From: Candidatus Shapirobacteria bacterium
GTDB taxonomy: Bacteria; Patescibacteriota; Microgenomatia; UM-FILTER-40-11
Length of the DNA: 64,000 bases
NCBI GenBank assembly: GCA_020059745.1
Contig: JAGVBK010000002.1
Span: 104,301 to 168,300, forward strand
Reading direction: 5' to 3'
Below, in pieces: positions 2,947 to 16,528 of the stretch; the stretch's first letter is position 1; each line of letters begins with the position of its first letter. The notes beneath the pieces were generated by a model. That model was not told the origin of the DNA, did no database searches, and was given only the letters and a program-made list of their open reading frames with translations. Made by a program: the position numbers and the translations under genes.

Positions 2947-5900
2947 TTAGTATACCCTAATTTTTTCCTGATTCAAAGCAACAATCGCGCTTATGGTTGC
3001 GAGCAGCAAGGTAAAACCAAAATATTGAAGATACTGGGGGATGAAAATCAGAACTACTCTGCTCTCGTTTTCCGAGCCAGGCAACACCCAACCGTTTTCC
3101 CAATTATTGACAAGAACATGATCATTAATCTCCCGGCCAACTAAAGGCAGTAGAAAAGCGGGTCTTTTAATTAAGCTTTCTCCTTCGAAGTAAGCTTTCC
3201 AGCCTTCATGATAAGACTGGGATAAGACAAGAAGGCTTTCCTGCCGTGGGGGGACATCGATTTTATAAAGGCTGGGGTTGGGGTGAGAACTTTCCGCCTT
3301 CATGTATTTAATTGGAGCCAAAGAAACATCTTTTTGGAAACGAATTCCAGAAAGAAAGTAGTATGGAATTGGGTTGATAGTAATCATCCCCAAATCATTG
3401 ACAGATTCATGCCTGCCAATAGAGATATTGTCAAAATGGAGCCGGTAGCCAATGCCTGATTTCTGCATCGGTGGTTGGATAATGAACTTCTCTCCTCCTT
3501 CTTTTTGAAGATAAAATTCCTGGTCTGCCCTTCTTGCACTTTGATTTTCCAGCCAAAAAAGCAGGCTTTTGCCTTTGACATTTTCATTCTCAACTTTAAT
3601 AAGATAGCCGAATTTATGAAGCAAATTCTCAAAACTAAAAGTGGCTGAGCAGTTGGTGGAATTAACGGCGCTAAGCCTTAGAAAGTTATTCCCCTGTTTA
3701 TTTGCAATTTCATTTTTGACTGTACCGAAACTGAATTGATTGCAGTTTTTAGCTTCTAAGCCTCCGGCAGTCGGATTAACTTCACCGCTGAAATAGCCCC
3801 CAACCTTAGGAACAATCACCTCGATATTCCTTCCCTGAACATTTACCTTTGGAATAAGATACTTAACATCGCTAAAGTCCCCGGGGTTTACCCAAATGAG
3901 TTCTCTGCCGTCAAAATCTGGAAGCCTTAGTTCATATGACAAAACCTCTTGAGGCACTTCCTTTGAAAAAATAAAGCTGTCTTTTGTTTCCTTAATATTA
4001 AAATCAAAACCTTCTGTCCCCCTGCCGGTAAAAATGGAACGGAACGGATAGTAGTAGTCCGCTTCTTTTTGCTCTGAATATATCCCCAAATCCAAAAAAG
4101 CCCGGTCATAACTTCCCCACCTGTAAGAAGAAGCCACTTTGGCAGTATCGGTAGAAATAAAGACATAATTTTCTATTGGATAGTCCAGATTAACTTTATA
4201 AAGCAGGATATTGCCAAAAGTTTTTTCAAGGCTGAATTTTGGCGAAGAAAACATCTCTTCAAGCTCGTCAAAACCCAGAGCTTTATAGTTGCCGGTATTG
4301 TAAATGTTTTTATCGACAAGCGCGTATTCTATTTGGTACTTATCAAATATCTTTTCAAATATTTCATTTTTCCTTGAAAAAAGAGCATACGACATTTCCC
4401 AGTAATAGTTCTCGTTTTGGCTGCTCCACATGTCAAAATTACGGTCTAGAATCGGCTGGTTAATACCATACCAAATAAAACCCGAGCCGGTATAATTCCA
4501 ACGGTAAAGACTCCAACCCCAAAAACTTGATTGGGGAAAATCGGCAATTCTCCCGTCTTTACCGCTTTTTTTAAGATAAGAAAAAAGCTCAAAATAGTTT
4601 TCGGGAATGCGGGCTTTTACCCTTGGGTAAAATAATTTACCCTGAAAAACCGGATACAAATAAAACACGGGCAAAAAAGCCAAAAGGACAATGATTAAGA
4701 GGCTCTTTTTTGAGTTTGCCTTTGAACTTAACCAAAAACAAAATGCACCAAAATACAAAGAAAGGCAAAAAGCAAGCAAAGCGGAAAACTTAGTAAAAGG
4801 AAATCTGAACATCTGAGAAAATAGCGGAAGCTTAAAGAAAGCTTTTGACAAAAGCGAAATAACCGGTGTTTCGTTGGCTAAAACTAAAAAAGACAAGAAG
4901 AAAACCGGCAAAAAAGAGATTAATTTTTTAAATTTTAAAAATGAAATTAAAGCGCCTGCCGTTCCTAAGAAAAAAAGCAAAAACCCAAAGAAAGAAATCA
5001 CCGGATTTTCGAGGTGTCCTGTCCAAGGCGCCATTAGATAATTCACTGTTCCGTTCTCACTTGTTTCCGTGGTATCAAACCAAAAACCTTTAAGAAGAAC
5101 GACATTTTTTAGATCCCCGTATTTTTTGTTTTTAAGTAAGTTGTCTTCGGTTGTCATCTGGCTAATTTTTGACTGGACCGTGATATTAACATCCGAAAAG
5201 ACAAAATAAAGATTTGGCAAAAGCCAAAAAGCGTTAGTGATAAAAATAAAAGCAAAAGAAAGCAAAACCCTCTTAAGACTGCCTTTGTTTTGCAAAAGAT
5301 AAACAAAAGAAGCCAAACCCCAAGCCATTAAATAGACCGCAAAAAAGGTGCCTACATATCCCTGTGGCACAGCCAGCAAATTCACCAAAAGAAGAAAAAT
5401 AAGGCTCTTTTTATCCCTTTTCTCCAGGAAATTAAGATTAACTAAAAACAACCAGGGCAAAGAAGCAAAGTGGTGAGAAAAAGCTTCAAAAGGAACATAA
5501 AAAAGCTGAATTGTGGCCAGGTTAAAAAGATAAAAGACAGAGCCGGCCAGAGCGGAAAGTTTTTTCTTACCTTTTCCTGCCAAGAGAAAAGAAAGTAAAA
5601 AGTAAATCCCCAAAGACCCCAGGTAAAGCATTAGAAAGTGGTAAAAATATCTGAGAAACGAACTTGGGAGAAACAAAGAAAAAATCCATAAAATTAGCTG
5701 CCTTGGCAAGTCTGCGGCATGGCCCATGCCACCCATTAAACCCAAGCCCTGATACTCCTGCCAGGAAGCAAAAAATGATCTTTTAAGATTAAGGCCAAAA
5801 TCAAACTCAGGATGAAGGTTATCCCAACCTGAAAGCCATGTTCCGGCATGAGAATTTGCAATGCTTATAGCCAAAAAGACGGCAGTTAAAATCAGCACCG

Positions 5901-5949
5901 GCCAAATGTCAATTACTTTAAGGAAAAATTGTTTAAAAAAGTTTTTCAT
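2947..5949 (-). CDS. Large polytopic membrane protein, GT-C-fold glycosyltransferase-like
   Basis: 1000 aa. The N-terminal half has many hydrophobic helices with an early GWDNLHPEFDF loop. The C-terminal roughly 450 aa is soluble. It neighbours GT1 and GT2 genes. The family assignment (AftD/DUF3367- or YfhO-like) is inference only. Confidence 0.45.
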   Translation of the reverse strand: MKNFFKQFFLKVIDIWPVLILTAVFLAISIANSHAGTWLSGWDNLHPEFDFGLNLKRSFFASWQEYQGLGLMGGMGHAADLPRQLILWIFSLFLPSSFLRYFYHFLMLYLGSLGIYFLLSFLLAGKGKKKLSALAGSVFYLFNLATIQLFYVPFEAFSHHFASLPWLFLVNLNFLEKRDKKSLIFLLLVNLLAVPQGYVGTFFAVYLMAWGLASFVYLLQNKGSLKRVLLSFAFIFITNAFWLLPNLYFVFSDVNITVQSKISQMTTEDNLLKNKKYGDLKNVVLLKGFWFDTTETSENGTVNYLMAPWTGHLENPVISFFGFLLFFLGTAGALISFLKFKKLISFLPVFFLSFLVLANETPVISLLSKAFFKLPLFSQMFRFPFTKFSALLAFCLSLYFGAFCFWLSSKANSKKSLLIIVLLAFLPVFYLYPVFQGKLFYPRVKARIPENYFELFSYLKKSGKDGRIADFPQSSFWGWSLYRWNYTGSGFIWYGINQPILDRNFDMWSSQNENYYWEMSYALFSRKNEIFEKIFDKYQIEYALVDKNIYNTGNYKALGFDELEEMFSSPKFSLEKTFGNILLYKVNLDYPIENYVFISTDTAKVASSYRWGSYDRAFLDLGIYSEQKEADYYYPFRSIFTGRGTEGFDFNIKETKDSFIFSKEVPQEVLSYELRLPDFDGRELIWVNPGDFSDVKYLIPKVNVQGRNIEVIVPKVGGYFSGEVNPTAGGLEAKNCNQFSFGTVKNEIANKQGNNFLRLSAVNSTNCSATFSFENLLHKFGYLIKVENENVKGKSLLFWLENQSARRADQEFYLQKEGGEKFIIQPPMQKSGIGYRLHFDNISIGRHESVNDLGMITINPIPYYFLSGIRFQKDVSLAPIKYMKAESSHPNPSLYKIDVPPRQESLLVLSQSYHEGWKAYFEGESLIKRPAFLLPLVGREINDHVLVNNWENGWVLPGSENESRVVLIFIPQYLQYFGFTLLLATISAIVALNQEKIRVY

Positions 5950-5959
5950 TTTGTTTAAC

Positions 5960-7240
5960 TTATCCGTTTAACAAATAAGCGTATTTTTCTCCGATTGCCG
6001 ACCAGCTTCTTTTTTCAGACATGATCTTGGAAAACTTTTTCATTTTCCCCTGCAAAACCTTGCTTTCCGACACTTCTTTTAATTTTTTAAACAAATCTTT
6101 TGAATCAAGACTAAAAATAATCTCTTCCATTTTAAGATTACTTTTTTCTAATGCCTCTTTTATGTCCAAAGAAAGGCAGTAAGCGCTTAAAGGCTCAGAA
6201 AACAAAACCGGCTTTTTATAGGAAAAGGCAATGGACAGTGGTCCGCTGCTGCTGACAAATATCCGGTAAGGAAGTATTACTACATCACTTAAGCTAAAAA
6301 AGTCGTTTATATTTTCTTCATTAATAAAGCCGGTTATTTCGATGTTTTTACCTGCTTTTTTAGCGCATTTGTAAATAGCGGCAATGAATTTTTTATAAAC
6401 CCTATCCTCTTCATGAGTTTTTGCCGGACCGCCGGCCATTATGAGTTTGATGTTTGTTTTTTTGTTCTTTGAAAAATAATGGCTTAAGGTTTTAACCAAC
6501 CAGTCCGAACCCTTATACCAAGTCAAAAAACCAAAACAAAGAACCACAAAATCACTCTCTTTAATTCTCATTTCTTTAAGTTTCACTCTTGAAAGAGCTT
6601 CTTTTCTTTTGGAAGTTCTTCCGTTTGGCTCAACTCCTAATGAAATAGTAACCACCTTTGAGCGGTCAGAGGTAAACTGAAGAGCATGGTTCCTTAGTAT
6701 TTCTTCAAAAGCCACTGTTTTATGACTTAGGTTAACTCCAAGAAAGTAAAGTGTTTTTAAAGCCAAGGTGTATGCTTTCGCCCGAAAACTGTCTTTTTTA
6801 ATTCCCAATTGTTCCACTGCTAAATTGGCATCAGTTAAAATGCCGTGAGAAACAAAATAAACTTTTTTTTGCATGAGCCTTAAAAATAAAAGCAGTGCCG
6901 GAACGCCGGCAAGAAGATAGCGTTTATTGCCGAATATCGCCCATTCAAAAGCAAAAAACACTTTTAAACAGTTTCTCTCCTTTAGTATCTCCCGCACAAT
7001 CTGCAAAAAAAGCTTTGGCTTGTTTCTATCCCAAACTCTTTTTACCTTGATTTTGTCTTCAAAGTATTCTTCTTTACCACCGTCAAGCTTGTCCGCCAAA
7101 ACCACAAACTTTAGTTTTTTCTCTTTTTCCATGCTGGAGAGCAGGGTTTTTTTGGAATAAGGAGCAACTGCCGAATAAGGGTGGTTGTGTAAACTTCCTT
7201 TAGGAGGATAAGTGGTAATAACTAGAATTTTTTCTTTCAT
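5960..7240 (-). CDS. Glycosyltransferase, GT1/GT4-like
   Basis: 426 aa with Rossmann-like halves. The C-terminal half shows GFINEE...SDVVILPY...SSGPL, resembling the GT-B retaining glycosyltransferase signature. Confidence 0.65.
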   Translation of the reverse strand: MKEKILVITTYPPKGSLHNHPYSAVAPYSKKTLLSSMEKEKKLKFVVLADKLDGGKEEYFEDKIKVKRVWDRNKPKLFLQIVREILKERNCLKVFFAFEWAIFGNKRYLLAGVPALLLFLRLMQKKVYFVSHGILTDANLAVEQLGIKKDSFRAKAYTLALKTLYFLGVNLSHKTVAFEEILRNHALQFTSDRSKVVTISLGVEPNGRTSKRKEALSRVKLKEMRIKESDFVVLCFGFLTWYKGSDWLVKTLSHYFSKNKKTNIKLIMAGGPAKTHEEDRVYKKFIAAIYKCAKKAGKNIEITGFINEENINDFFSLSDVVILPYRIFVSSSGPLSIAFSYKKPVLFSEPLSAYCLSLDIKEALEKSNLKMEEIIFSLDSKDLFKKLKEVSESKVLQGKMKKFSKIMSEKRSWSAIGEKYAYLLNG

Positions 7241-7255
7241 AGGGCAGAAAAGAAA

Positions 7256-8062
7256 TTAATATTCGAAAACTTTTTTAAAAGAAGAAACCACTACCTTTCT
7301 GAATTGTGGCCTTATCTGATAAATATTCTTTAGATCATTAACTTTAATGGCAAACATTTCTTTGAAAGCTCTCAAAATATCCCTTACCAGGTTAACTTTA
7401 CTTGACTTACTTATATGTTTCCAAGTAACAGGCAGCTCGACAATTCTGTAATTAAGCTTGTTGCTGACATAAATTACTTCCGGATCCAGCCCCCATCTTT
7501 CTTGAGTCAATCTGGGAAAAACATCGCGACAGACTTGGTAAGAAAAAACCTTAAAGCCGCCGGTAAAATCAGCAATTTTAATTCCTAAAACAGTTTGGAG
7601 AATTTTACTGTGAACCGTGCCGATTATTTCCCTAACCATACTTCTTTTAACCAAGGAAATAGTTTGGGGAAGCTTTTTGCTGCCTACTAAAACTTCATAA
7701 CCTTTATGCATAAAGAGAGAAAATTCTTTAAGGTTTTCAAGAGGAATTGACATGTCGCCGTCTAAAAACATGCCAAAATCAGTATTTACCTCTTTTACTC
7801 CCTGCATGACCGCATATCCCCGGCCTTTGTTTAAGGGATAGGAAATAAGGAAAATTTCCGTTTGGTCAATAATATTTCCGGAGTACTGTCTTTGGAAATT
7901 TTTCAGTAAAGAAAGAGTTTTGTCTTTACTGCCGTCATCAACAAAAATAAGTTTTTCAATCTTAATGCTTTTTGGGCTTTTGTAATTGACAAGATAACCC
8001 AAAGTTTTTTTAAGCCTTTTTTCTTCATTATAGAGAGGGACAATGACAGTTAATGTTTTCAT
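7256..8062 (-). CDS. GT2 glycosyltransferase (polyprenol-phosphate sugar transferase-like)
   Basis: 268 aa. Contains VIVPLYNEE, VDDGSKDKT and a DGD motif, typical of dolichyl/undecaprenyl-phosphate glycosyltransferases. Confidence 0.8.
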   Translation of the reverse strand: MKTLTVIVPLYNEEKRLKKTLGYLVNYKSPKSIKIEKLIFVDDGSKDKTLSLLKNFQRQYSGNIIDQTEIFLISYPLNKGRGYAVMQGVKEVNTDFGMFLDGDMSIPLENLKEFSLFMHKGYEVLVGSKKLPQTISLVKRSMVREIIGTVHSKILQTVLGIKIADFTGGFKVFSYQVCRDVFPRLTQERWGLDPEVIYVSNKLNYRIVELPVTWKHISKSSKVNLVRDILRAFKEMFAIKVNDLKNIYQIRPQFRKVVVSSFKKVFEY

Positions 8063-8063
8063 C

Positions 8064-8279
8064 TTAAAACCCCTTTTCTTTCATGCACCTTTGGTATGAG
8101 TCCCAATCAGGGACACGGGCGCTGCTGCCGCCCTCAGGGTTCTCATAAGTATTGACGCCCACTGTCATACACCCCTGAACAGCATTGTTTTTTATCATTC
8201 TTTCCGATTGCCTGTATCCCAAAACCACCGCTCCAATAAGGGCGGCGCCGATTAAGATAGTTCCGATATCTTTTCTCAT
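8064..8279 (-). CDS. Small single-pass membrane protein, unknown function
   Basis: The internal Met (MRKDIGTILIGAALIGAVVLGY...) gives a 71-aa protein with one TM helix and two Cys. The longer 94-aa version has an unlikely N-terminus. Confidence 0.45.
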   Translation of the reverse strand: MRKDIGTILIGAALIGAVVLGYRQSERMIKNNAVQGCMTVGVNTYENPEGGSSARVPDWDSYQRCMKEKGF

Positions 8280-8403
8280 TTTTTCACCGATAAAAGCATA
8301 AAATAAATTTTTATACTTTAGTCGATGCGTAACCCGAAGAGTGTTCATTTACCTTATGAAGGTAAACTACTAACCCTCCGGGTTACGCGATCGGCATGCA
8401 ATG

Positions 8404-9549
8404 CTACTTGACAAGTCCCAGATACTGCTCCCGCCAGAATGTGGCTGCAATAGCCATTCCTTCCCACCCTACGGGAATTCTGGCTTTGGGATAGCTTGGG
8501 ATCAATATCAAGTTTGGGTCGGTCGGCACCTCCAGACGCTCTCCGTCGAACGGAAATTCGAACGGATTCCTGATGAAAAACGCGTCTTGGGGAGGTGCCT
8601 GCCAGTTGCCGTTGCCCAGATCGACGAGCCTGACACTCGGTGCAAGGCCGAATGTTGAGCGGATCCACGCTTCGTTCACCTGTGAAGGCGAAAAAGCGGG
8701 GGTCGCACTGGGAACGACGGGCGTTGGGGCAGCTAGCGGAACTGGTGTCTGAGTTGGCACAACTTGGGCTACCAAAGTAGCTGTCGGCTGTACCAAACTT
8801 GAGACCTGACCGATTTGACCAACTGAGGTCACAGGGATCACGCCAGTGATCCTGTGATACTCGTCAATACTGAAAGGCCTGAACGTGATCCCCTGTACAG
8901 GACCACACCAACCAGCAGGAATTCCTGACCCAACTGCTTCTGGGGGAAAACCCTCTTCTAGGGTCCTCCCGTGCAACTCCCGCTGTCTGCGGTCCGCCAT
9001 CCAGCCATCTTGCCGGAAAGGAGTGAAGTTACAAACCTCAATGGAAACAATATTCCCAAAGAGGTCTTTCTCCTCCGGCACCTTCCAGCTCCATGGCTCA
9101 CCCCTAGCCCTGCTAACCTCGCTGGGCTCAATGGACGGCTGAGCCTGTCTCCTTGTTGCAAGGATAACAAACTCATCCACTGACCTTGGCCAATCCTCCA
9201 TGACCTCAAGGCCTAGAACCCTGATGTCGTCCAGAGTCTGACCGCCAGTCAGAGTAAGCCCGAAAGCCTGAACCCTAGGTGACGGTGCCATTGCAACCGT
9301 CGGTTCGGATTGAACAGCCTCCTGACCGGGAGTCGGAGTCACAAGGACCTCAACAACCCGAGTCACTTCGACCGGAACCTCCTTCTCGACAACGACGGTC
9401 TCCTTGACCACCTGAGGGACGACCCTGGTGACCTCGACCGGGACCGTCTCCTTGACGATCTCGGGCGTTGGTGTCAGAGCACTTTCCCTGAGCGCACAAC
9501 CCGTGATCATCACGATAGCCACCATTACAACCAGGAATATCATCTTCAT
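8404..9549 (-). CDS. Lipoprotein, unknown function (GC-rich island)
   Basis: 381 aa. It has a signal peptide with lipobox MITGC and an AGGAGG-type SD upstream. An N-terminal tandem KETV.VEVTRVV repeat and Pro/Thr linkers are present. I recognised no family. Confidence 0.6.
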   Translation of the reverse strand: MKMIFLVVMVAIVMITGCALRESALTPTPEIVKETVPVEVTRVVPQVVKETVVVEKEVPVEVTRVVEVLVTPTPGQEAVQSEPTVAMAPSPRVQAFGLTLTGGQTLDDIRVLGLEVMEDWPRSVDEFVILATRRQAQPSIEPSEVSRARGEPWSWKVPEEKDLFGNIVSIEVCNFTPFRQDGWMADRRQRELHGRTLEEGFPPEAVGSGIPAGWCGPVQGITFRPFSIDEYHRITGVIPVTSVGQIGQVSSLVQPTATLVAQVVPTQTPVPLAAPTPVVPSATPAFSPSQVNEAWIRSTFGLAPSVRLVDLGNGNWQAPPQDAFFIRNPFEFPFDGERLEVPTDPNLILIPSYPKARIPVGWEGMAIAATFWREQYLGLVK

Positions 9550-9559
9550 CTCAACCCTC

Positions 9560-10072
9560 CTAATCCCTCTGATGTCTCCGAAGAAACCCTGGAATGTCCA
9601 ACTCCGAACCGGGCGGATCCAGAGGATTTTCAGGCGTCTGCCTTTCCTCTTTCATCTCCGCCGCCCTGAAATTCAACCGTTCCAATTCCTCGATAAGCTC
9701 CTCCCTTTTCTCGTTCAGCTTCTTGATCTCATTTCTCGCCTGCTCGAGTTGAACTCTTTTTTCGCCAACGACACTAGTCAACTCTGCCACAGTCTTCTGT
9801 AGTTCGAGAACTTCTCCGTACAACTCATTTTTTCGACGCTGGCCTTCCTCAATCTTCTCGTCTGTTGTTGAGGCAACTTCCTCTTTCCTCCCTCTCACGT
9901 TCAAGATTATGGAAAGAACGAAAAGCAAAACCCCAACGACCAGGAGAATCCAGACCCAAGGCTCAAAAATCGCGAAAAAGTCGACGAGGACAAGCCCAAC
10001 AACAATATTTACCAGGCTCACCCCCAAAAACACAGTACCAACAATAAGTAAGACCAACACCAGGCGCTTCAT
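9560..10072 (-). CDS. Membrane-anchored coiled-coil protein (GC-rich island)
   Basis: The start is taken at MKRLVLVLLIVG, which has an AGGAGA SD 7 nt upstream. There are two or three TM helices, then a heptad-like Glu/Lys-rich segment (LQKTVAELTSVVGEKRVQLEQARNEIKKLNEKREELIEELERL). Confidence 0.55.
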   Translation of the reverse strand: MKRLVLVLLIVGTVFLGVSLVNIVVGLVLVDFFAIFEPWVWILLVVGVLLFVLSIILNVRGRKEEVASTTDEKIEEGQRRKNELYGEVLELQKTVAELTSVVGEKRVQLEQARNEIKKLNEKREELIEELERLNFRAAEMKEERQTPENPLDPPGSELDIPGFLRRHQRD

Positions 10073-10285
10073 GTCTTCTTCTCCTTTGCATGCCGATGTC
10101 AAAGAACTACTTTTGGCTCCTTCCAAGAACCGCAATTGGTCCTCTTTCTGGGCCAAAAGACCGATTTTTCAAAATCGGAATAATACCCACTATTAATGAA
10201 CATCTTTCCGACTTCAAAAGACAACCAGCCGGAGAGAGAAAGATACGCTTGCGCGTAAACAAACTCTCTCCGGCGAGATGCCATC

Positions 10286-11068
10286 CTACTCGAACCAAAC
10301 CACTGCGGTCCAGACCTTAACGTGCCCCGGCCCCTTGAATTTGTCTAGGTTTTCCCCAAGAATTGGGTTCCACCCGGTGACCAAGGCATTCTCGGGCACA
10401 GCGAGCATGACAGGGTTTCCACCACTGTTATAGTCAAAGCTGCACCCATCCTTCCGAAGGGCCCAGACACCACCAGTGACAACATTGGCTTGAAGCCAAT
10501 CGATGCTTGGGCAACCCTCGGGTTGGTCCGGAATCGGGAGCCTCGGCAAAGGCGGATTGAACACCACTGGGAGAAACAAAATACTTTCTCCAGGTGTCGG
10601 AACCACCGTTGGCTCGGCGGTTGCCATTGCAGTTGGTTCCGGCGTGGCGGTCGGCGTTGCCGTTACAGTTGGTACTGTAACCGTTGGCTCGGCCGTTGCC
10701 GTGGCGCTCTGTGGCTCAATCCACAGAACCCCGTCCCAAAATTCTCCCGAACCAGGTCCTTCCACCAGAAGGTCTTTTTGGCCCTCCGGCTCCGGCCGCG
10801 GATCCCAACCAGTCATCTTGGATCCACCCGCGGGGACAACGAGCAAGATCGGCTCCTCAAACGGGCCTCTTCCGCTCTCGAAAACAAAATCACAACCTTC
10901 GTCGGGCCCGACTTTCCACATCGAGAGTTCACCCCCGATGTTTTCCGCGACCCACTCGAGATCCGGGCACTCTTGCGGGGGTTCCGGAATGGCAACCTCC
11001 GCTGAGAGCTGGAACGGCAAAACTGCCGCCAGCGCGACCACAACCGCGAGTACAAGACTGCGCTTCAT
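10286..11068 (-). CDS. Secreted protein with internally duplicated 2-Cys domain (GC-rich island)
   Basis: The start is taken at MKRSLVLAVVVALAAV (signal peptide), with an AGGAGGGG SD. Two homologous ~85-aa domains (CPDLEW...GCDF...TGWDP and CPSIDW...GCSF...TGWNP) are joined by a Thr/Pro/Ala linker. Confidence 0.6.
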   Translation of the reverse strand: MKRSLVLAVVVALAAVLPFQLSAEVAIPEPPQECPDLEWVAENIGGELSMWKVGPDEGCDFVFESGRGPFEEPILLVVPAGGSKMTGWDPRPEPEGQKDLLVEGPGSGEFWDGVLWIEPQSATATAEPTVTVPTVTATPTATPEPTAMATAEPTVVPTPGESILFLPVVFNPPLPRLPIPDQPEGCPSIDWLQANVVTGGVWALRKDGCSFDYNSGGNPVMLAVPENALVTGWNPILGENLDKFKGPGHVKVWTAVVWFE

Positions 11069-11216
11069 TTCCCCTCCTGGGATCATAAGGATGGCAAATA
11101 CTCAATGTGCTTCTGGTCTCACCAGCCAGATTGGCGCTTACGCCTTTCTAGTTATTGAAACCAGAAAAGGAAATTGAACTCCTAGTTTCCTTTCCCGGCT
11201 TCAACCGGAAACTTCT

Positions 11217-11849
11217 TTATTTTTTAAGACGAAGCAGCATGTATCCGGCAAGACCGGCAATTGAGGTTAAAGGGGCAACGAAAAGCAAACTAGAACCTGT
11301 GGCAGGAGTTTCACCTAAAACTTTTTTAACTTTGGTAACACAAACTTTAGAAGTGTCTTCTCTTTCTTCACCGCCGAATTTAGCCCTGACAGTGTTTTTG
11401 ACATCACAGTCAAAATCTTTATCACTCGGAGTGGAAACAACAACTGTTTCAATCTGTTTCTCTTCTGATTCGCCAGGTCCTAAATCTAAAATATCAAAAG
11501 TAAGGCTTCCTGACTCAAGCTTTAACTCAGCCGGAAGAAAGTCTGTAACAGTCACTTTTTCAAAAGTGCTGTTGCTGTTGTTAATGATTTTTATTCTGAA
11601 AATAACTTTTTCGCCAATGCTGAATTTATAGCCTTCAGGAGTAATGTCGGCTAAATTGTCTTCGAACCTTTTGTCAATCGGGCTCCAAACCTTTTTATCT
11701 AAAACAAGCTCTTCAACTTCGGTACAGACTTCGCCGCCGCCGTATAAAGATTCGCAACGGATTGCTCCAAAAGCATTTTTAGGAGAAATAATAAAAGCCG
11801 CAATAAATAAAATTGCGGTTAACAAAGCATGTTTCCTGTCCATTTTCAT
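11217..11849 (-). CDS. Surface protein with DUF11-like repeat domain and C-terminal sorting signal
   Basis: It has a signal peptide and a V.F.I...N.....F..V.V.D.LP..L core shared with the 12846-13490 protein. The C-terminus reads GETPATG, then a hydrophobic helix and an RLKK tail, a variant of LPXTG. Confidence 0.65.
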   Translation of the reverse strand: MKMDRKHALLTAILFIAAFIISPKNAFGAIRCESLYGGGEVCTEVEELVLDKKVWSPIDKRFEDNLADITPEGYKFSIGEKVIFRIKIINNSNSTFEKVTVTDFLPAELKLESGSLTFDILDLGPGESEEKQIETVVVSTPSDKDFDCDVKNTVRAKFGGEEREDTSKVCVTKVKKVLGETPATGSSLLFVAPLTSIAGLAGYMLLRLKK

Positions 11850-11974
11850 TTTTATTAAGGCTAAATAATAAAGACATGGCGTATTATAGGGCATGTTTAT
11901 TGCTTTGTCAACTGCCGATTTCTTGATTTTAGTAAACTTTTAAGAGATAATATCGCCGTTTACTAGAGGATATT

Positions 11975-12730
11975 ATGGAAATAATTCTTTTTGATTCATC
12001 CTGGGAAAAGGAAAAAATAATACCGGTTGATATTCCGGTTCCTAAACCTGTGGAACCAAAAATTTCTTCTTCTTTCCCTTTCGCAAAATTTGCCAGAGGC
12101 CTTGCTTTGGGCTTAATCGGCATTTCTCTTTTTGTTTTTGGCGCAGCAGTTTTGCCAATAATCAAGCTGGAATTAAGCTACCGCCTTAATCCTAAAAATG
12201 AAGCTGAAGCAAGAGAATACTTTCCCAAAACTCCAAGTTATGAGGTTGCCTTAGAAAACAAAAAGCAGCTTGCCTCACAAGAAGCAGCCAAATACGGGGT
12301 TGATACAGATTTTTCTCTGGTCATCCCTAAAATTTCTGCTACCTCAAAAATCATTGCCAATGTGGACCCGGCAGACGAAAATAAATACAAAGCTGCTCTT
12401 AAAAATGGAGTTGCCCACGCCAGCGGCACCAAATTCCCTGGCAGCAAAGGCACTATTTATCTTTTTGCCCATTCCACCAACACTTTAGTTAATGTTTCCC
12501 GCTACAATGCTGTCTTTTATCTAGTTAAAGAGCTGGAACCCGGAGACCAGGTTATCATCTTTTTTGCCGGTCTAAAATATTCGTACCGGGTAACCGAAAA
12601 GGTCATCACTACTCCAGAAGATTTATCTTTGATAAAAGACAACCAATCAACTGAAAAGCTAATTCTTCAAACCTGTTGGCCGCCGGGAACAACCTTAAAA
12701 CGGCTCATGGTTGTAGCAGAAAGAATTTAA
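11975..12730 (+). CDS. Sortase-family transpeptidase (copy 1)
   Basis: 251 aa with an N-terminal TM helix. Contains IYLFAHST (catalytic His region) and LILQTCWPPGT (TLxTC-like Cys motif). Confidence 0.8.
   Translation: MEIILFDSSWEKEKIIPVDIPVPKPVEPKISSSFPFAKFARGLALGLIGISLFVFGAAVLPIIKLELSYRLNPKNEAEAREYFPKTPSYEVALENKKQLASQEAAKYGVDTDFSLVIPKISATSKIIANVDPADENKYKAALKNGVAHASGTKFPGSKGTIYLFAHSTNTLVNVSRYNAVFYLVKELEPGDQVIIFFAGLKYSYRVTEKVITTPEDLSLIKDNQSTEKLILQTCWPPGTTLKRLMVVAERI
12281..12392 (+). repeat. Near-identical 112-nt tract shared by the two sortase paralogs (copy 1)
   Basis: Differs at only 2 positions from 13871-13982, while the flanking coding sequence is clearly diverged. Shorter identical blocks lie at 12449-12482 = 14039-14072 and 12653-12687 = 14243-14277. 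Confidence 0.9.
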
Positions 12731-12845
12731 CTTTCCATTTAAAAGTTCCCGAAATTAGTTTTCAAAGAGCTTAAATTGAAAATAATGGTTGGGGTTTAGA
12801 GCAGTTTTAGAAGCATGTAACAACATGGTAATAACTTTGTTAAAG

Positions 12846-13490
12846 CTATCTTCTTTTACCAAAGAAGACCAAGGCCAGACCCAAGAGTCCGTTTACTAAA
12901 GAAAGACCCAAAGTTGCTGGCATGGCACCGCTTCCGGTTTTCGGTAAAACCGTTGGTTTCCTCTCAACAACTTCTCGTCTGCTTACGCAAATTCTTGAGG
13001 TATCTTTATCCTCAATTCCGTCAGCTTTAACCGCTACTTCGTTAAAATCACAGATAACATCCTTATCTTTTGGAAATCTGCCTTCACTTACTACCCTTAC
13101 CCTGATATCCCTTTCCTCCACTTCATTGCGGTCAAAATCTGTAATATCAAAATCCAAATCTCCAGAAACAAACTCTAAAAATGAAGGAAGAGTATCTCTT
13201 ACCTCAACCCTGTCAAAGTCTCTTTCTCCTGTATTTTCCACCCTAATCCTGAAAACAACTTCATCCCCGGAAAAAAACTCATGGTCAGTAAAATCAAGGT
13301 TGTCAACAAAACGGCCGTCTCTTGGGTCCTGCACTTTTTTGTCAACATCAATTTCAATCGGCGGGCAAACATCATACTGAGGCTCACAAATATCAGAAGC
13401 AGCCGCATCTTTCCTCAAAACAAAAAAAAATGAAGCGGATAAAAAGATTAAGCCAAGTTTTCTTAATGTCATTTTGCTTACAATTTCCAT
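12846..13490 (-). CDS. LPXTG-anchored surface protein with DUF11-like repeat domain
   Basis: 214 aa with a signal peptide. The canonical LPKTG is followed by a hydrophobic segment and a GKRR tail. It is a paralog of the 11217-11849 product. Confidence 0.75.
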   Translation of the reverse strand: MEIVSKMTLRKLGLIFLSASFFFVLRKDAAASDICEPQYDVCPPIEIDVDKKVQDPRDGRFVDNLDFTDHEFFSGDEVVFRIRVENTGERDFDRVEVRDTLPSFLEFVSGDLDFDITDFDRNEVEERDIRVRVVSEGRFPKDKDVICDFNEVAVKADGIEDKDTSRICVSRREVVERKPTVLPKTGSGAMPATLGLSLVNGLLGLALVFFGKRR

Positions 13491-13603
13491 TTCTATTTAT
13501 TATTCACAGGGTGCCAAATCGTGTCAAGCAGAAAGAAACATTTTTAGTTCAAATTTATTTTTTTAGCTTGAATTTCCTAGCTTTTTTTTAATATAAACAG
13601 AGT

Positions 13604-14320
13604 ATGGAAATAATTCTTTATGAGGCTAAAGATAAAAAAAGCCTTGTTTTAAAAGAGTTTACAAAACTTTCTTTCATAAACTCCAAAGCCGCAGCCGAAT
13701 ACCTGGGCTACAGCTTTCTTGCCGCCTCCTTAATGTTTCTATTGGTCGGCTTTGCCCCGATTATTAAAGAAGAAGCAAAATATCAACTAAAAAGACTTTT
13801 TACTTTCTCTGCTCCGGAGGCAAGCGTTGAAAGTGTTTTTTTTGAAAACTCAAAAAAAATTGTTGAAGAGGAAGCAGCCAAATACGGGGTTGATACAGAT
13901 TTTTCTCTGGTCATCCCCAAAATTTCTGCAACCTCAAAAATCATTGCCAATGTGGACCCGGCAGACGAAAATAAATACAAAGAACTTCTAAAAACCGGAG
14001 TGGCACACGCGACAGGCACAAAGTTTCCCGGAAACAATGGCACTATTTATCTTTTTGCCCATTCCACCAACAACCCGGAAAACATTGTCCGCTACAATGC
14101 GGTTTTTTACCTTTTAAAAGAACTTGAGCCTGAAGATGAAGTCATTGTTTTTTTTGCCGGCCAAAAATTTGTCTATAAAGTTACCAAAAACTTTATTGCC
14201 GAAGCCGGTGACCTAAAATGGCTCTCGGGAGATGAGAATGAAGAAAAGCTAATTCTTCAAACCTGTTGGCCGCCGGGGACAACTTTCAAACGGCTCATTG
14301 TTGAAGCTAAACCTTTATAA
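13604..14320 (+). CDS. Sortase-family transpeptidase (copy 2)
   Basis: 238 aa with the same IYLFAHST and LILQTCWPPGT motifs as copy 1. Confidence 0.8.
   Translation: MEIILYEAKDKKSLVLKEFTKLSFINSKAAAEYLGYSFLAASLMFLLVGFAPIIKEEAKYQLKRLFTFSAPEASVESVFFENSKKIVEEEAAKYGVDTDFSLVIPKISATSKIIANVDPADENKYKELLKTGVAHATGTKFPGNNGTIYLFAHSTNNPENIVRYNAVFYLLKELEPEDEVIVFFAGQKFVYKVTKNFIAEAGDLKWLSGDENEEKLILQTCWPPGTTFKRLIVEAKPL
13871..13982 (+). repeat. Near-identical 112-nt tract shared by the two sortase paralogs (copy 2)
   Basis: Partner of 12281-12392, with 2 mismatches by direct comparison. Confidence 0.9.
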
Positions 14321-14359: not shown

Positions 14360-16528
14360 TTGATGGACAGAAACCAAATGACTGGAGAAGAATTACCTTT
14401 CTCATTGATTGAGATCCGTTTACCTAAATCAAGCGAAAAAACCCCGGAAGCGGCGGCTCAGCTTTTTGCGGCCTTTTCCTCCCTTCCTAAAAAGTCTTTT
14501 TTGTCTTTTAAACCTCCAGTAAGCATTTGTTTTGAAATTGTTTGTGTTGACCAGGTCGTCCATTTTCTCATTTCCTGCCCTAAGGAAATGAAAGGTTATG
14601 TTGAAAGCCAGCTTTCTGCCCAATATCCGGAAAGCATCCTTCTGGAAATTCCCAAAGATTATCTTGCCGGCTACACCCAAAACTCAAACCCAAACCTGGG
14701 CCAGCTTACTTTATCAAACAGCTTTTATCTGCCTTTGCGAACCTATAAGGAAGTTAAAGACTCTGATCTTATTTCTTCTGTTTTGGGCGCTATGTCCAAA
14801 GCCGGGCCGGAAGATTTTATGGCTATCCAATTTATTATCGCCCAAGCCGGTAACTGGCAAGGCTATGCCCAGGGAATCATTGACAGAGGAATCCCCTCAG
14901 GAGAGGAAGGAAAAACTCTTCCCCACCCCCAGGCAAAACACATTGCTGAAAAAATAAGCAGCGGTGGCTTTTGGACCGCCATAAGAATCATTGCCAGTTC
15001 AGAAGAACTTCTAAGAAATATTTCCAATTCCTTTTCTTCCTACCAAAGCGATGTCAATGGCTTAAAACTTAAAAAAATAAGCCCGAGAAACAAAAAAAAG
15101 CTGCTTGAATCTTGTCTCAAAAGGTCTTTCGAAATGGCTCCTGCTAACCAGGTTCTTAACCTTGACGAGCTCGCTTCTCTTTGGCACCCTCCATCAAAGC
15201 ATTTGTCGGGCATTAAAAACATCATGTGGACACAAACCATTATGAGTGAGCCTCCCCTAAACCTGCCTACAGCAATCGACCTTAATGAAGCTGACAAAAA
15301 AGAAATCAATTTCATAGCCCGGACTGAGCATAAAAACAAGGTGGCAACCTTTGGCATTAAGAAAAAAGACCGTAGAAGGCATGTTTACATTATCGGGAAA
15401 AGCGGTACCGGAAAATCAACTTTAATTGCCAATATGGCCATAAACGACTTAAGGAACCGGGAAGGTCTGGCAGTTATTGATCCTCACGGCGATTTAACTG
15501 AAATTCTTTTGGATTATATTCCCTCTTTTAGGATAAACGAAACTTGCTATCTTGACCCGAGCGACACCGCCAACCCTTTTCATCTTAATCCCCTTGAGGT
15601 TAAAAACCCGGCCCATAGAGAACTTGTGGCCTCGAATATTGTCGCCATTTTTTATAAGCTCTACCACTATTCCTGGGGGCCAAGGCTTGAATACATTTTA
15701 AGAAATACAATCCTGACTTTACTGCAAACCCCGCAGCCAACACTTCTTCAGATTACGGAAATGCTTTCCAATAAAAACTTCAGGAAAAGAGTGGTTGATA
15801 ACCTCAATGACCCGGTCTTAAAAAGCTTCTGGGTTAATGAGTTTGAAAAAATGTCTGAAAAAATGATGAATGAAGCGGTTTCTCCGATTTTAAATAAAGT
15901 CGGCCAGTTTACTTCCTCTCCCACCATCAGACAAATTGTCGGCTCTTATCACTCAACAGTTGACCTTGAGGGTATCATGAATTCCGGCAAAGTTTTGCTT
16001 GTTAACCTTTCCCAAGGAAAAATTGGAGAAGACAATGCTGCGCTTTTAGGTGCCATGATTATTACCCAGCTTCAACTGGCGGCCATGAACAGGATTAATG
16101 TTGCTGAAGAACAAAGGAGAGATTTTTATCTTTATGTTGACGAGTTTCAAAACTTTGCCACCAGTGCCTTTGTTAAAATACTTTCTGAGGCAAGAAAATA
16201 CCGCTTAGACCTTTGTCTGGCAAATCAGTATGTCGGCCAGCTTGAAGAAGACCTGCAAAAAGCAATTTTCGGGAATGCGGGAACTTTAATTTCTTTTGTT
16301 GTCGGTGCCGGAGATGCAGGCTACATGGCCCAGGAATTCGGCCAGATTTATAAAGAAGAAGATTTAGTTAATCTGGGCATGTATCAGGTGGCAATGAAGC
16401 TTTGCATCGACAACTTAACATCTTCTCCGTTTTTGGCTACCACCATGCCTCTTCCAAGATGCAAAAACCAAAACAGGTCAAAAGTGCTTAAGGTCTCCAA
16501 GGAAAGACACACGGTCAAGCAAAAATAA
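14360..16528 (+). CDS. VirD4/TraD/TraG-like P-loop NTPase (type IV secretion coupling-protein family) with orphan N-terminal domain
   Basis: 722 aa. Walker A is IIGKSGTGKST, followed by VIDPHGD. Walker B-like is FYLYVDEFQNF, with a KYRLDLCLANQY region. The N-terminal ~330 aa have no obvious TM helices and no motif I recognise. Confidence 0.65.
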   Translation: MMDRNQMTGEELPFSLIEIRLPKSSEKTPEAAAQLFAAFSSLPKKSFLSFKPPVSICFEIVCVDQVVHFLISCPKEMKGYVESQLSAQYPESILLEIPKDYLAGYTQNSNPNLGQLTLSNSFYLPLRTYKEVKDSDLISSVLGAMSKAGPEDFMAIQFIIAQAGNWQGYAQGIIDRGIPSGEEGKTLPHPQAKHIAEKISSGGFWTAIRIIASSEELLRNISNSFSSYQSDVNGLKLKKISPRNKKKLLESCLKRSFEMAPANQVLNLDELASLWHPPSKHLSGIKNIMWTQTIMSEPPLNLPTAIDLNEADKKEINFIARTEHKNKVATFGIKKKDRRRHVYIIGKSGTGKSTLIANMAINDLRNREGLAVIDPHGDLTEILLDYIPSFRINETCYLDPSDTANPFHLNPLEVKNPAHRELVASNIVAIFYKLYHYSWGPRLEYILRNTILTLLQTPQPTLLQITEMLSNKNFRKRVVDNLNDPVLKSFWVNEFEKMSEKMMNEAVSPILNKVGQFTSSPTIRQIVGSYHSTVDLEGIMNSGKVLLVNLSQGKIGEDNAALLGAMIITQLQLAAMNRINVAEEQRRDFYLYVDEFQNFATSAFVKILSEARKYRLDLCLANQYVGQLEEDLQKAIFGNAGTLISFVVGAGDAGYMAQEFGQIYKEEDLVNLGMYQVAMKLCIDNLTSSPFLATTMPLPRCKNQNRSKVLKVSKERHTVKQK

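What the first reader, a model, noticed from the sequence alone, without database searches (positions are those of the whole stretch)
8350..11100. Compositionally foreign island encoding three exported or membrane proteins
G+C rises abruptly. For example, 34 of 60 bases are G or C at 8641-8700, versus 19 of 60 at 5941-6000. The high GC yields long antisense ORFs typical of such DNA.

All three genes (10286-11068, 9560-10072, 8404-9549) are on the minus strand, tightly spaced and preceded by strong AGGAGG-type SDs. They encode:
- A signal-peptide protein.
- A TM plus coiled-coil protein.
- A lipoprotein with lipobox ITGC.

Thr/Pro/Ala linkers such as ATATAEPTVTVPTVTATPTATPEPTA are common in high-GC lineages. 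The island is wedged between a sortase-substrate gene and the GT2/GT1/GT-C cluster. It may be a horizontally acquired cell-surface module, possibly from a higher-GC host or neighbour, or it may be an assembly chimera.
Basis: partly seen in the sequence, partly recalled or inferred. Interest (0 to 1): 0.6.

Follow-up and report, generated by a model that had tools for sequence, protein, structure and literature searches.

The report
Conserved GC-rich hypervariable surface-protein slot
A 2.7-kb GC-rich stretch in a tiny-celled (Microgenomates/CPR) bacterium is neither an assembly error nor a recent foreign insert: it is an old, fast-evolving, recombining cassette of three exported proteins that keeps the same position and the same odd composition in many related lineages.

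Summary
Window 8350-11100 has 54% G+C against 40.5% elsewhere (z = 7.8). It holds three real minus-strand genes: a signal-peptide protein, a two-TM coiled-coil protein and a lipoprotein.

The cassette sits in the same place, between a sortase substrate gene and orf94-GT2-GT1-GT-C, with the same GC step, in seven other contigs from six other samples of the same clade. At least seven deeper Microgenomates lineages carry mostly unrelated GC-rich genes for exported proteins in or beside the same gene cluster.

Flanking proteins are 64-90% identical between lineages. Cassette proteins are only 31-59% identical, yet dN/dS is 0.11-0.33. Two contigs with 95% identical flanks carry sp260 alleles only 50% identical, with a sharp breakpoint in the signal peptide. 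Intragenic mosaics are frequent.

GC3 is 0.59 against 0.41 expected from the amino-acid composition. It stays near 0.6 although synonymous sites are saturated.

Best reading: a native hypervariable cell-surface locus diversified by homologous recombination, whose GC-richness is maintained locally by an unknown force. The function is inferred, not shown. No homologues were found in phages or in GC-rich genomes.

The parts
8404..9549 (-). lipo381: lipoprotein gene. It has a signal peptide with lipobox ITGC, then a VKETV/VEVTR-type repeat linker, a central Cys/Trp-containing region, a Pro/Thr/Val linker and a C-terminal beta domain.
   Evidence: ORF. GC 0.558, GC3 0.59. No Pfam, NCBIfam, PHROG or PDB-sequence match. 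Homologues are 40-58% identical by tblastn and occur only in the same slot. dN/dS 0.22-0.31. The AF2 model is poor, pLDDT 43, with only residues ~290-335 confident.
9560..10072 (-). TMcc: membrane protein with two N-terminal transmembrane helices and a coiled-coil tail of about 90 aa. Alternative upstream TTG starts lie at 10102 and 10156.
   Evidence: ORF. Hydrophobic stretch over residues 1-62. GC3 0.57 but GC2 0.29. Only sub-threshold coiled-coil, holin or Rz-like hits. Homologues are 31-35% identical, in the same position in L007, L003 and L002.
10073..10285 (-). Conserved, strongly structured intergenic element between sp260 and TMcc. It has terminator-like hairpins, and a hairpin that covers the TMcc Shine-Dalgarno sequence. 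It is a likely recombination anchor and regulatory leader.
   Evidence: 73-92% nucleotide identity between alleles whose coding parts are 20-60% identical. MFE -84.5 kcal/mol, z = -6.4. Consensus structure is kept in 3 sequences, with 1 compensatory pair. Two terminator-like sites. No Rfam family. Four related contigs break here.
10286..11068 (-). sp260: Sec-signal protein made of two copies of a ~85-aa two-cysteine beta domain, joined by a Thr/Pro/Ala linker of variable length. An alternative start lies at 11086.
10605..10705 (-). Imperfect 75-nt direct duplication inside the sp260 linker (ATAEPTV...).
   Evidence: Repeat D2, 26-nt cores 88% identical, 75 nt apart.
11069..11216 (-). Upstream region of sp260. 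It is conserved between lineages and forms the right-hand recombination anchor together with the signal-peptide codons.
   Evidence: 84-96% identity between the window and L007 over 11096-10880, dropping to about 48% further in. The 95% identity between L006 and L007 ends about 100 nt into the gene. GC 0.46 against 0.288 for background intergenic DNA.
8327..8388 (-). Hairpin (16-nt arms, 30-nt loop) spanning the gap between the lipo381 stop and the orf94 start. It marks the left-hand edge of the GC-rich block.
   Evidence: Inverted repeat I7, 88% complementary.
8064..8348 (-). orf94: small single-TM protein with a Cys pair. It has intermediate GC and is conserved next to GT2 in relatives. It is the left flank, not part of the hypervariable cassette.
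   Evidence: GC 0.435. 68-69% identical to its counterparts in L002 and L051. dN/dS 0.15-0.29.
2947..8062 (-). Left flank module: GT-C-type membrane glycosyltransferase (2947-5949), GT1 (5960-7240) and GT2 (7256-8062).
   Evidence: Pfam GT2 and GT1 hits. The best NCBIfam hits of GT2 are polyprenyl-phosphate sugar synthases such as PgfS, ArnC, AglJ and PpgS, all below their cut-offs. More than 850 homologues of the 1000-aa protein exist, mostly in Microgenomates; two of them pass the Pfam GT-C_AftD cut-off.
11217..14320 (.). Right flank module: two DUF11/CLIPPER sortase-substrate genes (11217-11894 and 12846-13490, minus strand), each paired with a sortase gene (11975-12730 and 13604-14320, plus strand).
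   Evidence: Pfam hits. A sub-threshold hit to an isopeptide-forming fimbrial domain, 20.8 bits against a cut-off of 30. The same order is found in relatives.

Best explanation
The GC-rich block is a native, old, hypervariable cell-envelope cassette. It occupies a fixed slot between the sortase/CLIPPER module and the GT2-GT1-GT-C glycosylation module of a Microgenomates (CPR) chromosome.

Shown:
- The three genes are real and under purifying selection.
- They encode Sec-exported or membrane-anchored proteins.
- The cassette is in the same position, with the same GC step, in every sampled relative.
- It diverges several-fold faster than its flanks at the protein level.
- Alleles are exchanged and shuffled by homologous recombination. 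The anchors are conserved segments: the flanks, the 5' region plus signal peptide of sp260, and a structured intergenic element.
- GC3 of about 0.6 persists across divergences at which synonymous sites are saturated, in genomes whose own GC3 is 0.29-0.54.

Inferred:
- The products are surface-exposed proteins under diversifying, negative-frequency-dependent selection, from phage or from the partner cell on which these episymbionts live.
- Their Thr/Pro-rich linkers may be glycosylated outside the membrane by the adjacent polyprenyl-phosphate-sugar synthase-like GT2 and the GT-C enzyme.
- The GC-richness is held up by a force tied to the locus, such as recombination-associated GC bias or selection on the G-rich, U-poor mRNA or coding strand. 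It is not the fading signature of a donor genome.
For: Synteny and the GC step recur in L001-L007 and L051.

By tblastn against the window, flank proteins are 64-90% identical and cassette proteins 31-59%. Cassette dN/dS is 0.11-0.33 against 0.04-0.23 in the flanks, with dS > 1 in both.

Recombination:
- L006 against L007: srtA dS 0.02, DUF11a dS 0.19, sp260 dS 2.2. DNA identity of 95% ends about 100 nt into sp260.
- Mosaic blocks: the window and L007 are 84-96% identical in the sp260 5' part, then about 48%. L004 and L007 are 96-100% identical in one ~120-nt block only.
- Lipoprotein variants P0016 and P0017 are identical to the window's protein apart from one replaced patch at residues 68-95 and five nearby substitutions.
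- All seven related short contigs break inside the cassette, four of them at the conserved intergenic element.

Composition:
- GC3 is 0.59 observed against 0.41 expected. G-ending codons rise in all eight four-fold families. Intergenic GC is 0.45-0.47 against 0.288.
- In the pair L002/L004 against L007, cassette dS (0.8-1.2) is similar to flank dS (0.6-1.5), yet both copies keep GC3 of 0.57-0.64. Under the flank substitution regime this would need an ancestral GC3 of at least 0.85 (my calculation).

Generality: eight lineages all have slot GC1, GC2 and GC3 above their flanks. At four-fold sites G is up in 8 of 8 and T is down in 8 of 8. The slot proteins fall into at least three unrelated families.

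No external reservoir was found. There were 7 hits among 1.84 billion representatives. Four of the five family hits have a known context, and all four lie in or beside this gene cluster (P0007, P0008, P0009, P0011); P0010 was not looked up. The other two weak hits are long repeat proteins that were not examined. Nothing was found in IMG/VR.
Against: - All comparison sequences are metagenome contigs. An assembler switching strains inside a conserved segment could mimic some recombination breakpoints.
- L002 and L004 are assumed to come from one genome because they come from the same sample.
- dS values above 1 are saturated, so the amelioration argument is approximate.
- Polarised third-position changes show a mild, non-significant excess of GC-to-AT (18:13, 25:14, 21:12). 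Some slow decay may therefore be occurring, which fits replenishment by import as well as local maintenance.
- No mechanism for a local GC bias is identified. GC skew and G-runs are ordinary.
- Surface exposure, selection by phage or host, and glycosylation are all inferred. No function was obtained from sequence or structure.
Confidence: 0.65

Rival explanations
1. Integration hot spot fed from outside. The slot repeatedly receives cassettes from an unsampled GC-rich gene pool, such as another CPR lineage, a plasmid or a phage. The GC-richness is the donor's signature, constantly renewed.
For: - The composition shift affects coding and non-coding DNA.
- Slot contents are unrelated between deep lineages.
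- Allele replacement demonstrably occurs.
- There is a mild excess of GC-to-AT changes.
Against: - No homologue was found in any GC-rich context or phage. This holds for an exhaustive search of 1.84 billion representatives, for IMG/VR, and for word-indexed searches of 5.8 billion proteins.
- Every family member whose context was recovered lies in or beside the same cluster.
- The four-fold-site signature (G up, T down, C roughly flat) is shared by eight lineages and is strand-asymmetric. Assorted donors would not be expected to give this.
- There are no mobility genes or attachment-site repeats.
Confidence: 0.2
2. A single ancient horizontal acquisition at the base of the clade from a high-GC donor, still ameliorating slowly.
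For: - The island has GC-rich codon usage and amino-acid usage.
- It is restricted to a narrow clade at the level of detectable homology.
- There is a slight GC-to-AT excess.
Against: - GC3 is about 0.6 in all alleles despite saturated synonymous divergence.
- Seven deeper lineages carry different GC-rich genes in or beside the same cluster. That would need many independent acquisitions at one place.
- No donor-like homologues were found.
Confidence: 0.08
3. The composition is a by-product of amino-acid content: Pro, Val, Thr, Ala, Gly and Trp rich, Lys, Asn and Ile poor, as suits extended surface proteins.
For: GC1 and GC2 are raised. Pro is 10% against 4.3%, Val 12.8% against 7.0%, and Lys 3.2% against 8.9%. 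In lineage L134 most of the excess is at GC2.
Against: This composition with background codon usage gives GC3 of 0.41, whereas 0.59 is observed. The island's intergenic DNA is also GC-enriched. TMcc has a low GC2 of 0.29 but a GC3 of 0.57.
Confidence: 0.04
4. Assembly chimera joining DNA of a higher-GC organism into a CPR contig.
For: An abrupt composition step in a metagenome-assembled genome.
Against: Identical junctions occur in a separately assembled JGI contig. Homologous junctions on both sides occur in contigs from six other samples. Both borders lie in conserved sequence that continues into the cassette.
Confidence: 0.01
5. Remnant of a prophage lysis or conversion cassette (holin or spanin-like membrane protein plus lipoprotein).
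For: TMcc gives weak hits to Phage_holin_3_6 and to Rz-like spanin families. A membrane coiled-coil gene followed by a lipoprotein gene resembles i-spanin plus o-spanin.
Against: - All hits are far below their cut-offs and are of the kind any TM-plus-coiled-coil protein gives.
- The lipoprotein is 381 aa, against roughly 60 aa for an o-spanin (my knowledge).
- There is no endolysin or other phage gene, and no IMG/VR relative.
- The position is fixed across lineages.
Confidence: 0.02

Closest known systems
Replacement-type flexible genomic islands and hypervariable surface-antigen loci kept by balancing selection. Examples: O-antigen or capsule loci, the SAR11 hypervariable region, Borrelia ospC allele types (from my own knowledge of the literature).
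   Same: Fixed chromosomal position. Conserved flanks with sharp recombination breakpoints. Deeply divergent alleles or cassettes between near-identical strains. Products at the cell surface. Composition unlike the rest of the genome.
   Different: Here the deviation is towards higher GC and is reproduced in many lineages whatever the genome's own GC. The contents are small exported proteins of unknown fold rather than sugar-synthesis genes. Within the genus the cassettes are homologous mosaics rather than non-homologous replacements.
Borrelia vls antigenic-variation locus
   Same: A surface lipoprotein system whose variable DNA is far richer in G+C than its genome: 49.1% against about 28.6%. 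The authors interpret this as strong selective pressure to maintain it, tied to recombination (PMC11499132). Here it is 54% against 40.5%, with segmental replaced patches.
   Different: vls has arrays of silent cassettes, a coding-strand GC skew of about 0.52 and clustered G runs. Here the skew is 0.15, G-runs are not enriched (47 against 56 +/- 5 in shuffles), and no silent copies exist in the 64-kb window. Variation here is seen between strains, not shown within a clone.
Two-component extracytoplasmic protein O-glycosylation: a polyprenyl-phosphate sugar synthase GT2 plus a GT-C transferase. Examples: actinobacterial Ppm1/Pmt acting on Thr/Pro-rich secreted lipoproteins, and Streptococcus mutans Pgf acting on Thr-rich adhesins (from my own knowledge).
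   Same: The adjacent GT2's best family hits are PgfS, ArnC, AglJ and PpgS-type enzymes. A GT-C-type membrane protein lies alongside. The cassette proteins are Sec substrates with Thr/Pro/Ala linkers.
   Different: All GT2 hits are far below their equivalog cut-offs. The GT-C is AftD-like, not Pmt (GT39). No evidence of glycosylation exists. The association is by neighbourhood only.
Diversity-generating retroelements, which are common in CPR
   Same: Targeted hypervariability of surface or binding proteins in CPR genomes.
   Different: There is no template/variable repeat pair for the island in the window. The window was not scanned for a reverse transcriptase. Divergence spans three whole genes rather than a ~100-bp C-terminal variable region.

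Membership tests
Recently acquired genomic island (horizontal transfer) | Composition and codon usage deviate from the host genome | tested here: met
   54% against 40.5% GC, and GC3 0.59 against 0.37.
Recently acquired genomic island (horizontal transfer) | Absent from close relatives, or patchy in distribution | tested here: not met
   Present at the same junctions in all seven related contigs. Analogous GC-rich genes occur in or beside the same cluster in deeper lineages.
Recently acquired genomic island (horizontal transfer) | Mobility signatures: tRNA or integrase nearby, flanking direct repeats | tested here: not met
   The nearest tRNA is 30 kb away. There are no flanking repeats. The neighbouring genes carry no integrase family hits.
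Recently acquired genomic island (horizontal transfer) | Homologues in a plausible donor with matching composition | tested here: not met
   Only 3-4 close homologues per protein, all in the same slot. An exhaustive profile search gave 7 hits, none in a GC-rich genome context.
Hypervariable, replacement-type surface locus | Same chromosomal position in relatives, with conserved flanks | tested here: met
Hypervariable, replacement-type surface locus | Much greater divergence inside than outside, including between near-identical strains, with recombination breakpoints | tested here: met
   L006 against L007: flank dS 0.02-0.19 against sp260 dS 2.2, with the breakpoint about 100 nt into the gene. 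Mosaic blocks are seen. Caveat: these are metagenome contigs.
Hypervariable, replacement-type surface locus | Products exposed at the cell surface | tested here: inconclusive
   Signal peptide, lipobox and TM anchors are read from the sequence. Localisation was not tested.
vls-like gene-conversion antigenic variation | Array of silent cassettes homologous to the expressed gene | tested here: not met
   No second copy in the 64-kb window by blastn or tblastn. The rest of the genome could not be searched.
vls-like gene-conversion antigenic variation | High G+C together with a strong coding-strand GC skew and G clusters | tested here: not met
   High G+C: yes. Skew is 0.15, similar to the neighbours. 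G3+ runs number 47 against 56 +/- 5 expected.
Diversity-generating retroelement target | Template repeat / variable repeat pair and a reverse transcriptase nearby | tested here: not met
   No repeat of island sequence elsewhere in the window. The window was not scanned exhaustively for a reverse transcriptase.
Phage holin/spanin lysis cassette | Significant match to holin or spanin families, a small o-spanin lipoprotein, and an endolysin neighbour | tested here: not met
   Hits of 16-22 bits, below their cut-offs. The lipoprotein is 381 aa. There is no endolysin and no viral relative.
Polyprenyl-phosphate-sugar dependent protein O-glycosylation system | GT2 polyprenyl-phosphate sugar synthase | tested here: inconclusive
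   The best NCBIfam hits are PgfS, ArnC, AglJ and PpgS, but at 24-65 bits against cut-offs of 325-529.
Polyprenyl-phosphate-sugar dependent protein O-glycosylation system | GT-C fold transferase | tested here: inconclusive
   The window protein has no direct Pfam hit. Full-length homologues pass the GT-C_AftD cut-off: P0077 (43% identical, 97% of the query) and P0133 (42% identical, 67% of the query).
Polyprenyl-phosphate-sugar dependent protein O-glycosylation system | Glycan attached to Ser/Thr of the exported proteins | not testable with these tools
   Needs glycoproteomics.

The most novel reading that the evidence does not exclude
Microgenomates possess a dedicated, locus-specific diversification process acting on a conserved surface-protein slot next to their sortase and glycosylation genes. 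A recombination- or repair-linked mechanism both accelerates change and drives the DNA towards about 60% G+C (G up and T down on the coding strand) whatever the genome's own composition. That would be a new kind of bacterial antigenic or host-range variation system, recognisable by composition alone.
Probability: 0.15. Interest if true: 0.85.

Novelty: new variant of a known kind. Interest (0 to 1): 0.62.

Why it matters
CPR bacteria are thought to live attached to other microbes, but the molecules that decide which partner they bind, and which phages bind them, are almost unknown. This locus points to a small set of exported proteins that are the fastest-evolving and most recombined genes in an otherwise conserved envelope-biogenesis cluster, so they are natural candidates for those molecules.

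The composition is a second puzzle. A GC3 near 0.6 is held over saturated divergence in AT-biased, repair-poor genomes, and it recurs with unrelated genes in the same gene cluster. Simple amelioration theory does not predict this, which makes the locus a clean natural test for recombination-linked or selection-linked GC maintenance in bacteria.

There are two practical points. Such islands should not be trimmed from CPR bins as contamination. They also explain why assemblies of these organisms break at this spot.

Tried and rejected
- **Family searches.** Pfam, NCBIfam, PHROGs and PDB-sequence searches of the three proteins gave nothing above threshold.
- **lipo381 structure.** pLDDT was 43, unusable apart from a short C-terminal domain, so it was not searched.
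- **Shared domain.** A profile-profile comparison of sp260 and lipo381 found no relationship.
- **Phage origin.** Two IMG/VR scans found no relatives.
- **DGR or silent-cassette idea.** There is no repeat or paralogue of island sequence in the window.
- **vls-like G4 or GC-skew idea.** Skew and G-runs are ordinary.
- **Mobile-element borders.** No tRNA and no direct or inverted repeats bracket the island.
- **Rfam.** No credible family for the island or its intergenic element.
- **Promoter scan.** No better than shuffles.
- **GT2-based scans of GTDB genomes and JGI metagenomes.** Most hits were unrelated GT2 genes. Only L051, L008/L052 and L055/L011 were informative.
- **Literature.** Searches found no description of a GC-rich variable slot in CPR.
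- **Polarised substitution counts.** Too few for significance.


Full report
**1. Observation**

The composition step is real and large.
- Positions 8350-11100 have 54.1% G+C against 40.5% for the rest of the 64-kb window.
- No other 2750-bp window exceeds 45.1% (z = 7.8).

The three minus-strand ORFs are at the stated coordinates, and each is preceded by an AGGAGG or AAGGAG motif (sequence).
- sp260 (10286-11068) has a signal peptide ending LSA|EV.
- TMcc (9560-10072) has a hydrophobic stretch over residues 1-62 followed by a coiled coil.
- lipo381 (8404-9549) has the lipobox ITGC.

The shift is not only an amino-acid effect.
- GC3 is 0.57-0.61 in the three genes against 0.32-0.43 in the neighbours.
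- Their amino-acid composition read with background codon usage predicts GC3 of 0.41, and 0.59 is observed.
- G-ending codons rise in all eight four-fold families.
- The intergenic DNA in and around the block is 45-47% G+C against 28.8% for background intergenic DNA.

**2. Not a chimera and not a recent arrival**

The window belongs to a Candidatus Microgenomates MAG (NCBI tag C4578_02330). A separately assembled JGI contig is 100% identical over 19.5 kb, including both junctions.

Homologues of the island proteins are extremely rare in public data: 3-4 per protein among 5.8 billion clusters. Every one whose context could be recovered lies at the same place.
- On the right side, the order is sortase, then DUF11/CLIPPER substrate, then sp260 homologue (L004, L005, L006, L007).
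- On the left side, the order is lipoprotein homologue, orf94, GT2, GT1 (L002, L051).
- L007 carries all three genes in order.
- L003 is a 1.6-kb fragment that holds only cassette genes.

All these contigs show the same step, from about 0.55-0.62 G+C to 0.28-0.41. The flanking genes of these relatives differ from the window's at saturated synonymous distances (dS 0.5-2).

There is no tRNA within 30 kb, no flanking direct or inverted repeat, no second copy of any island sequence in the window, and no relative in IMG/VR.

**3. Fast evolution, purifying selection and recombination**

Against the window, flank proteins are 64-90% identical. sp260 is 53-59%, the lipoprotein 40-58% and TMcc 31-35% (pairwise comparisons). 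Cassette dN/dS is 0.11-0.33, so these are functional genes with relaxed or partly diversifying constraint. The flanks give 0.04-0.23.

The genealogy is discontinuous.
- Contigs L006 and L007 have identical sortase proteins (dS 0.02) and DUF11a at dS 0.19. Their DNA is 95% identical over 1655 nt, ending about 100 nt into sp260. After that point the proteins are 50% identical and dS is 2.2.
- L007's sp260 is closer to L004's (65%) than to L006's (50%), although the flanks say the opposite.
- Sliding identity shows mosaics. The window and L007 are 84-96% identical through the 5' region and signal peptide of sp260, then about 48%. L004 and L007 are 96-100% identical in a single ~120-nt block.
- Within the window's own population, two lipoprotein variants from other samples match it throughout, apart from one replaced patch (residues 68-95, with an 11-residue deletion) and five substitutions nearby.
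- All seven related short contigs end inside the cassette, four of them at one conserved intergenic element. This is expected if divergent alleles coexist in the samples.

A caveat applies to all of this. The sequences are metagenome contigs, and an assembler switching strains within a conserved segment could create some apparent breakpoints.

**4. A conserved structured element inside the cassette**

The 213-nt spacer between sp260 and TMcc is 73-92% identical between alleles whose coding parts are 20-60% identical.
- It folds far better than shuffled sequence (-84.5 kcal/mol, z = -6.4).
- It contains two terminator-like hairpins and a hairpin that covers the TMcc Shine-Dalgarno sequence.
- With only three sequences there is one compensatory pair, and there is no Rfam family.

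It probably acts as terminator and leader. Together with the sp260 5' region and the outer flanks, it also supplies the homology that lets each gene be swapped separately.

**5. The same slot in deeper lineages**

More distant Microgenomates were reached through GT2 and GT-C homology, and so were chosen without regard to GC. They again have GC-rich genes for exported or membrane-anchored proteins next to the same gene cluster.
- L008/L052: a 331-aa TM-anchored protein, in a stretch whose 500-bp windows reach 0.54-0.63 G+C.
- L055/L011: a 299-aa signal-peptide protein.
- L136/L137: a 214-aa protein with GC3 of 0.63 in a 38% GC locus.
- L138: a 319-aa protein plus two paralogues, GC3 0.56-0.63 in a 47% GC locus.
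- A Shapirobacteria population (L139-L148): proteins of 128 and 345 aa, GC3 0.49-0.58 against 0.27-0.31 in the flanks.

Distant relatives of sp260 found by an exhaustive profile search are P0009 (L131) and P0011 (L134). They also sit inside GT1/GT2/GT-C plus sortase clusters.

Over eight lineages, slot genes exceed their flanks in GC1, GC2 and GC3. Slot GC3 is 0.44-0.72 and flank GC3 is 0.29-0.54. At four-fold sites G is higher in 8 of 8 and T lower in 8 of 8, while C is mostly unchanged. The slot proteins fall into at least three families with no detectable similarity. The common features are position, export signals, low-complexity Pro/Thr/Ala/Val linkers, small Cys- and Trp-containing beta domains, and GC-richness.

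**6. What keeps it GC-rich**

Take the pair L002/L004 against L007. Cassette dS (0.8-1.2) is like flank dS (0.6-1.5), and both copies have GC3 of 0.57-0.64.

In a two-state model with the flank equilibrium (GC3 about 0.37), that amount of change would shrink any excess to roughly 0.35-0.5 of its starting value. The ancestor would then need a GC3 of at least 0.85, and more for deeper pairs. This is my calculation, and it is approximate because dS is saturated.

The cassette is therefore not evolving under the flank regime. Either it is held up locally, or alleles are re-imported from a GC-rich pool. I favour local maintenance for three reasons.
- No reservoir was found in very large searches.
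- Unrelated genes in many lineages show the same signature.
- That signature is strand-asymmetric.

The evidence is not decisive. Polarised third-position changes show a mild, non-significant GC-to-AT excess.

Translational selection is unlikely, because the ribosomal-protein and translation-factor genes in the window have ordinary GC3. A vls-like G-rich recombination signal is not supported. Coding-strand skew is 0.15, G-runs are not enriched, and no silent copies are in the window. The vls locus remains the best precedent for a surface-protein locus whose G+C is held far above its genome: 49.1% against about 28.6%, which its analysts interpret as strong selective pressure (PMC11499132). Whether recombination raises GC in bacteria through biased conversion or through more effective selection is debated (PMC11879095).

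**7. Function**

Nothing can be assigned from sequence or structure.
- sp260 models as two small beta domains with no significant fold match.
- The lipoprotein model is poor.

Context suggests envelope biology.
- Sortases are near-ubiquitous in Microgenomates (PMC6744442).
- The right flank encodes two sortase and CLIPPER-substrate pairs, with a sub-threshold hit to an isopeptide-forming fimbrial domain.
- The left flank encodes a GT2 whose nearest families are polyprenyl-phosphate sugar synthases. It also encodes a widely conserved 1000-aa membrane protein whose homologues pass the Pfam GT-C_AftD threshold.

A reasonable but untested model is that the cassette proteins are surface-exposed and are O-glycosylated on their linkers by this GT2/GT-C pair. 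They would vary because they are seen by phages or by the partner cell.

**8. Verdict**

It is a new variant of the known class of hypervariable or replacement surface loci. The conserved compositional signature across CPR lineages is the unusual and unexplained part.

Noticed in passing
window 10073-10290 (minus strand): A conserved, highly structured intergenic element lies inside the hypervariable cassette (MFE -84.5 kcal/mol, z = -6.4). It has terminator-like hairpins and a hairpin that covers the next gene's Shine-Dalgarno sequence. It has no Rfam family, and several public contigs break here.
   Followed up: partly
window 18202-18729 (+) and 51947-52540 (+): Two further ORFs have raised GC3 (0.55 and 0.57 against about 0.37). 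The first encodes a multi-pass membrane protein near the same cluster. The second is a soluble-looking 197-aa protein with a GTG start. Neither is explained.
   Followed up: no
window 11975-12730 and 13604-14320; 11217-11894 and 12846-13490; 14360-16528: The sortase and DUF11/CLIPPER substrate pair is duplicated; the sortase genes are about 78% identical at DNA level over 441 nt. Next to them is a VirD4/TraG-like coupling ATPase (TrwB_AAD_bind, DUF87). The arrangement is conserved in relatives and suggests a sortase-assembled surface fibre linked to a secretion ATPase.
   Followed up: partly
L139-L148 (Shapirobacteria, identical GT-C protein P0113), slot gene e.g. L143:2824-3861: Within one population the GC-rich slot gene varies by a 93-nt in-frame deletion in its Pro/Thr linker (L142) and by a 2-nt indel that splits it into 249-aa and 84-aa ORFs (L139, L140, L145). 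The surrounding 3.7 kb is 99.9-100% identical.
   Followed up: partly
P0016 / P0017 against window 8404-9549: Lipoprotein variants from other samples match the window's protein throughout, apart from one replaced patch (residues 68-95, with an 11-residue deletion) and five substitutions nearby. The patch resembles the gene's own VEKEV/VEVTR repeats, which suggests intragenic repeat recombination.
   Followed up: partly
L138:13360-13914 and L138:4887-6273: In a deeper relative, additional GC-rich genes (GC3 up to 0.71) lie on both sides of the sortase/GT cluster. Two are paralogues of the slot gene. The GC-rich gene class is therefore not confined to a single intergenic slot.
   Followed up: no
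L134:10881-11258: A 125-aa single-domain paralogue of the sp260-type two-cysteine domain has ordinary GC (0.39). It sits right next to a GC-richer two-domain copy (0.50). The domain family can therefore exist at host composition.
   Followed up: no
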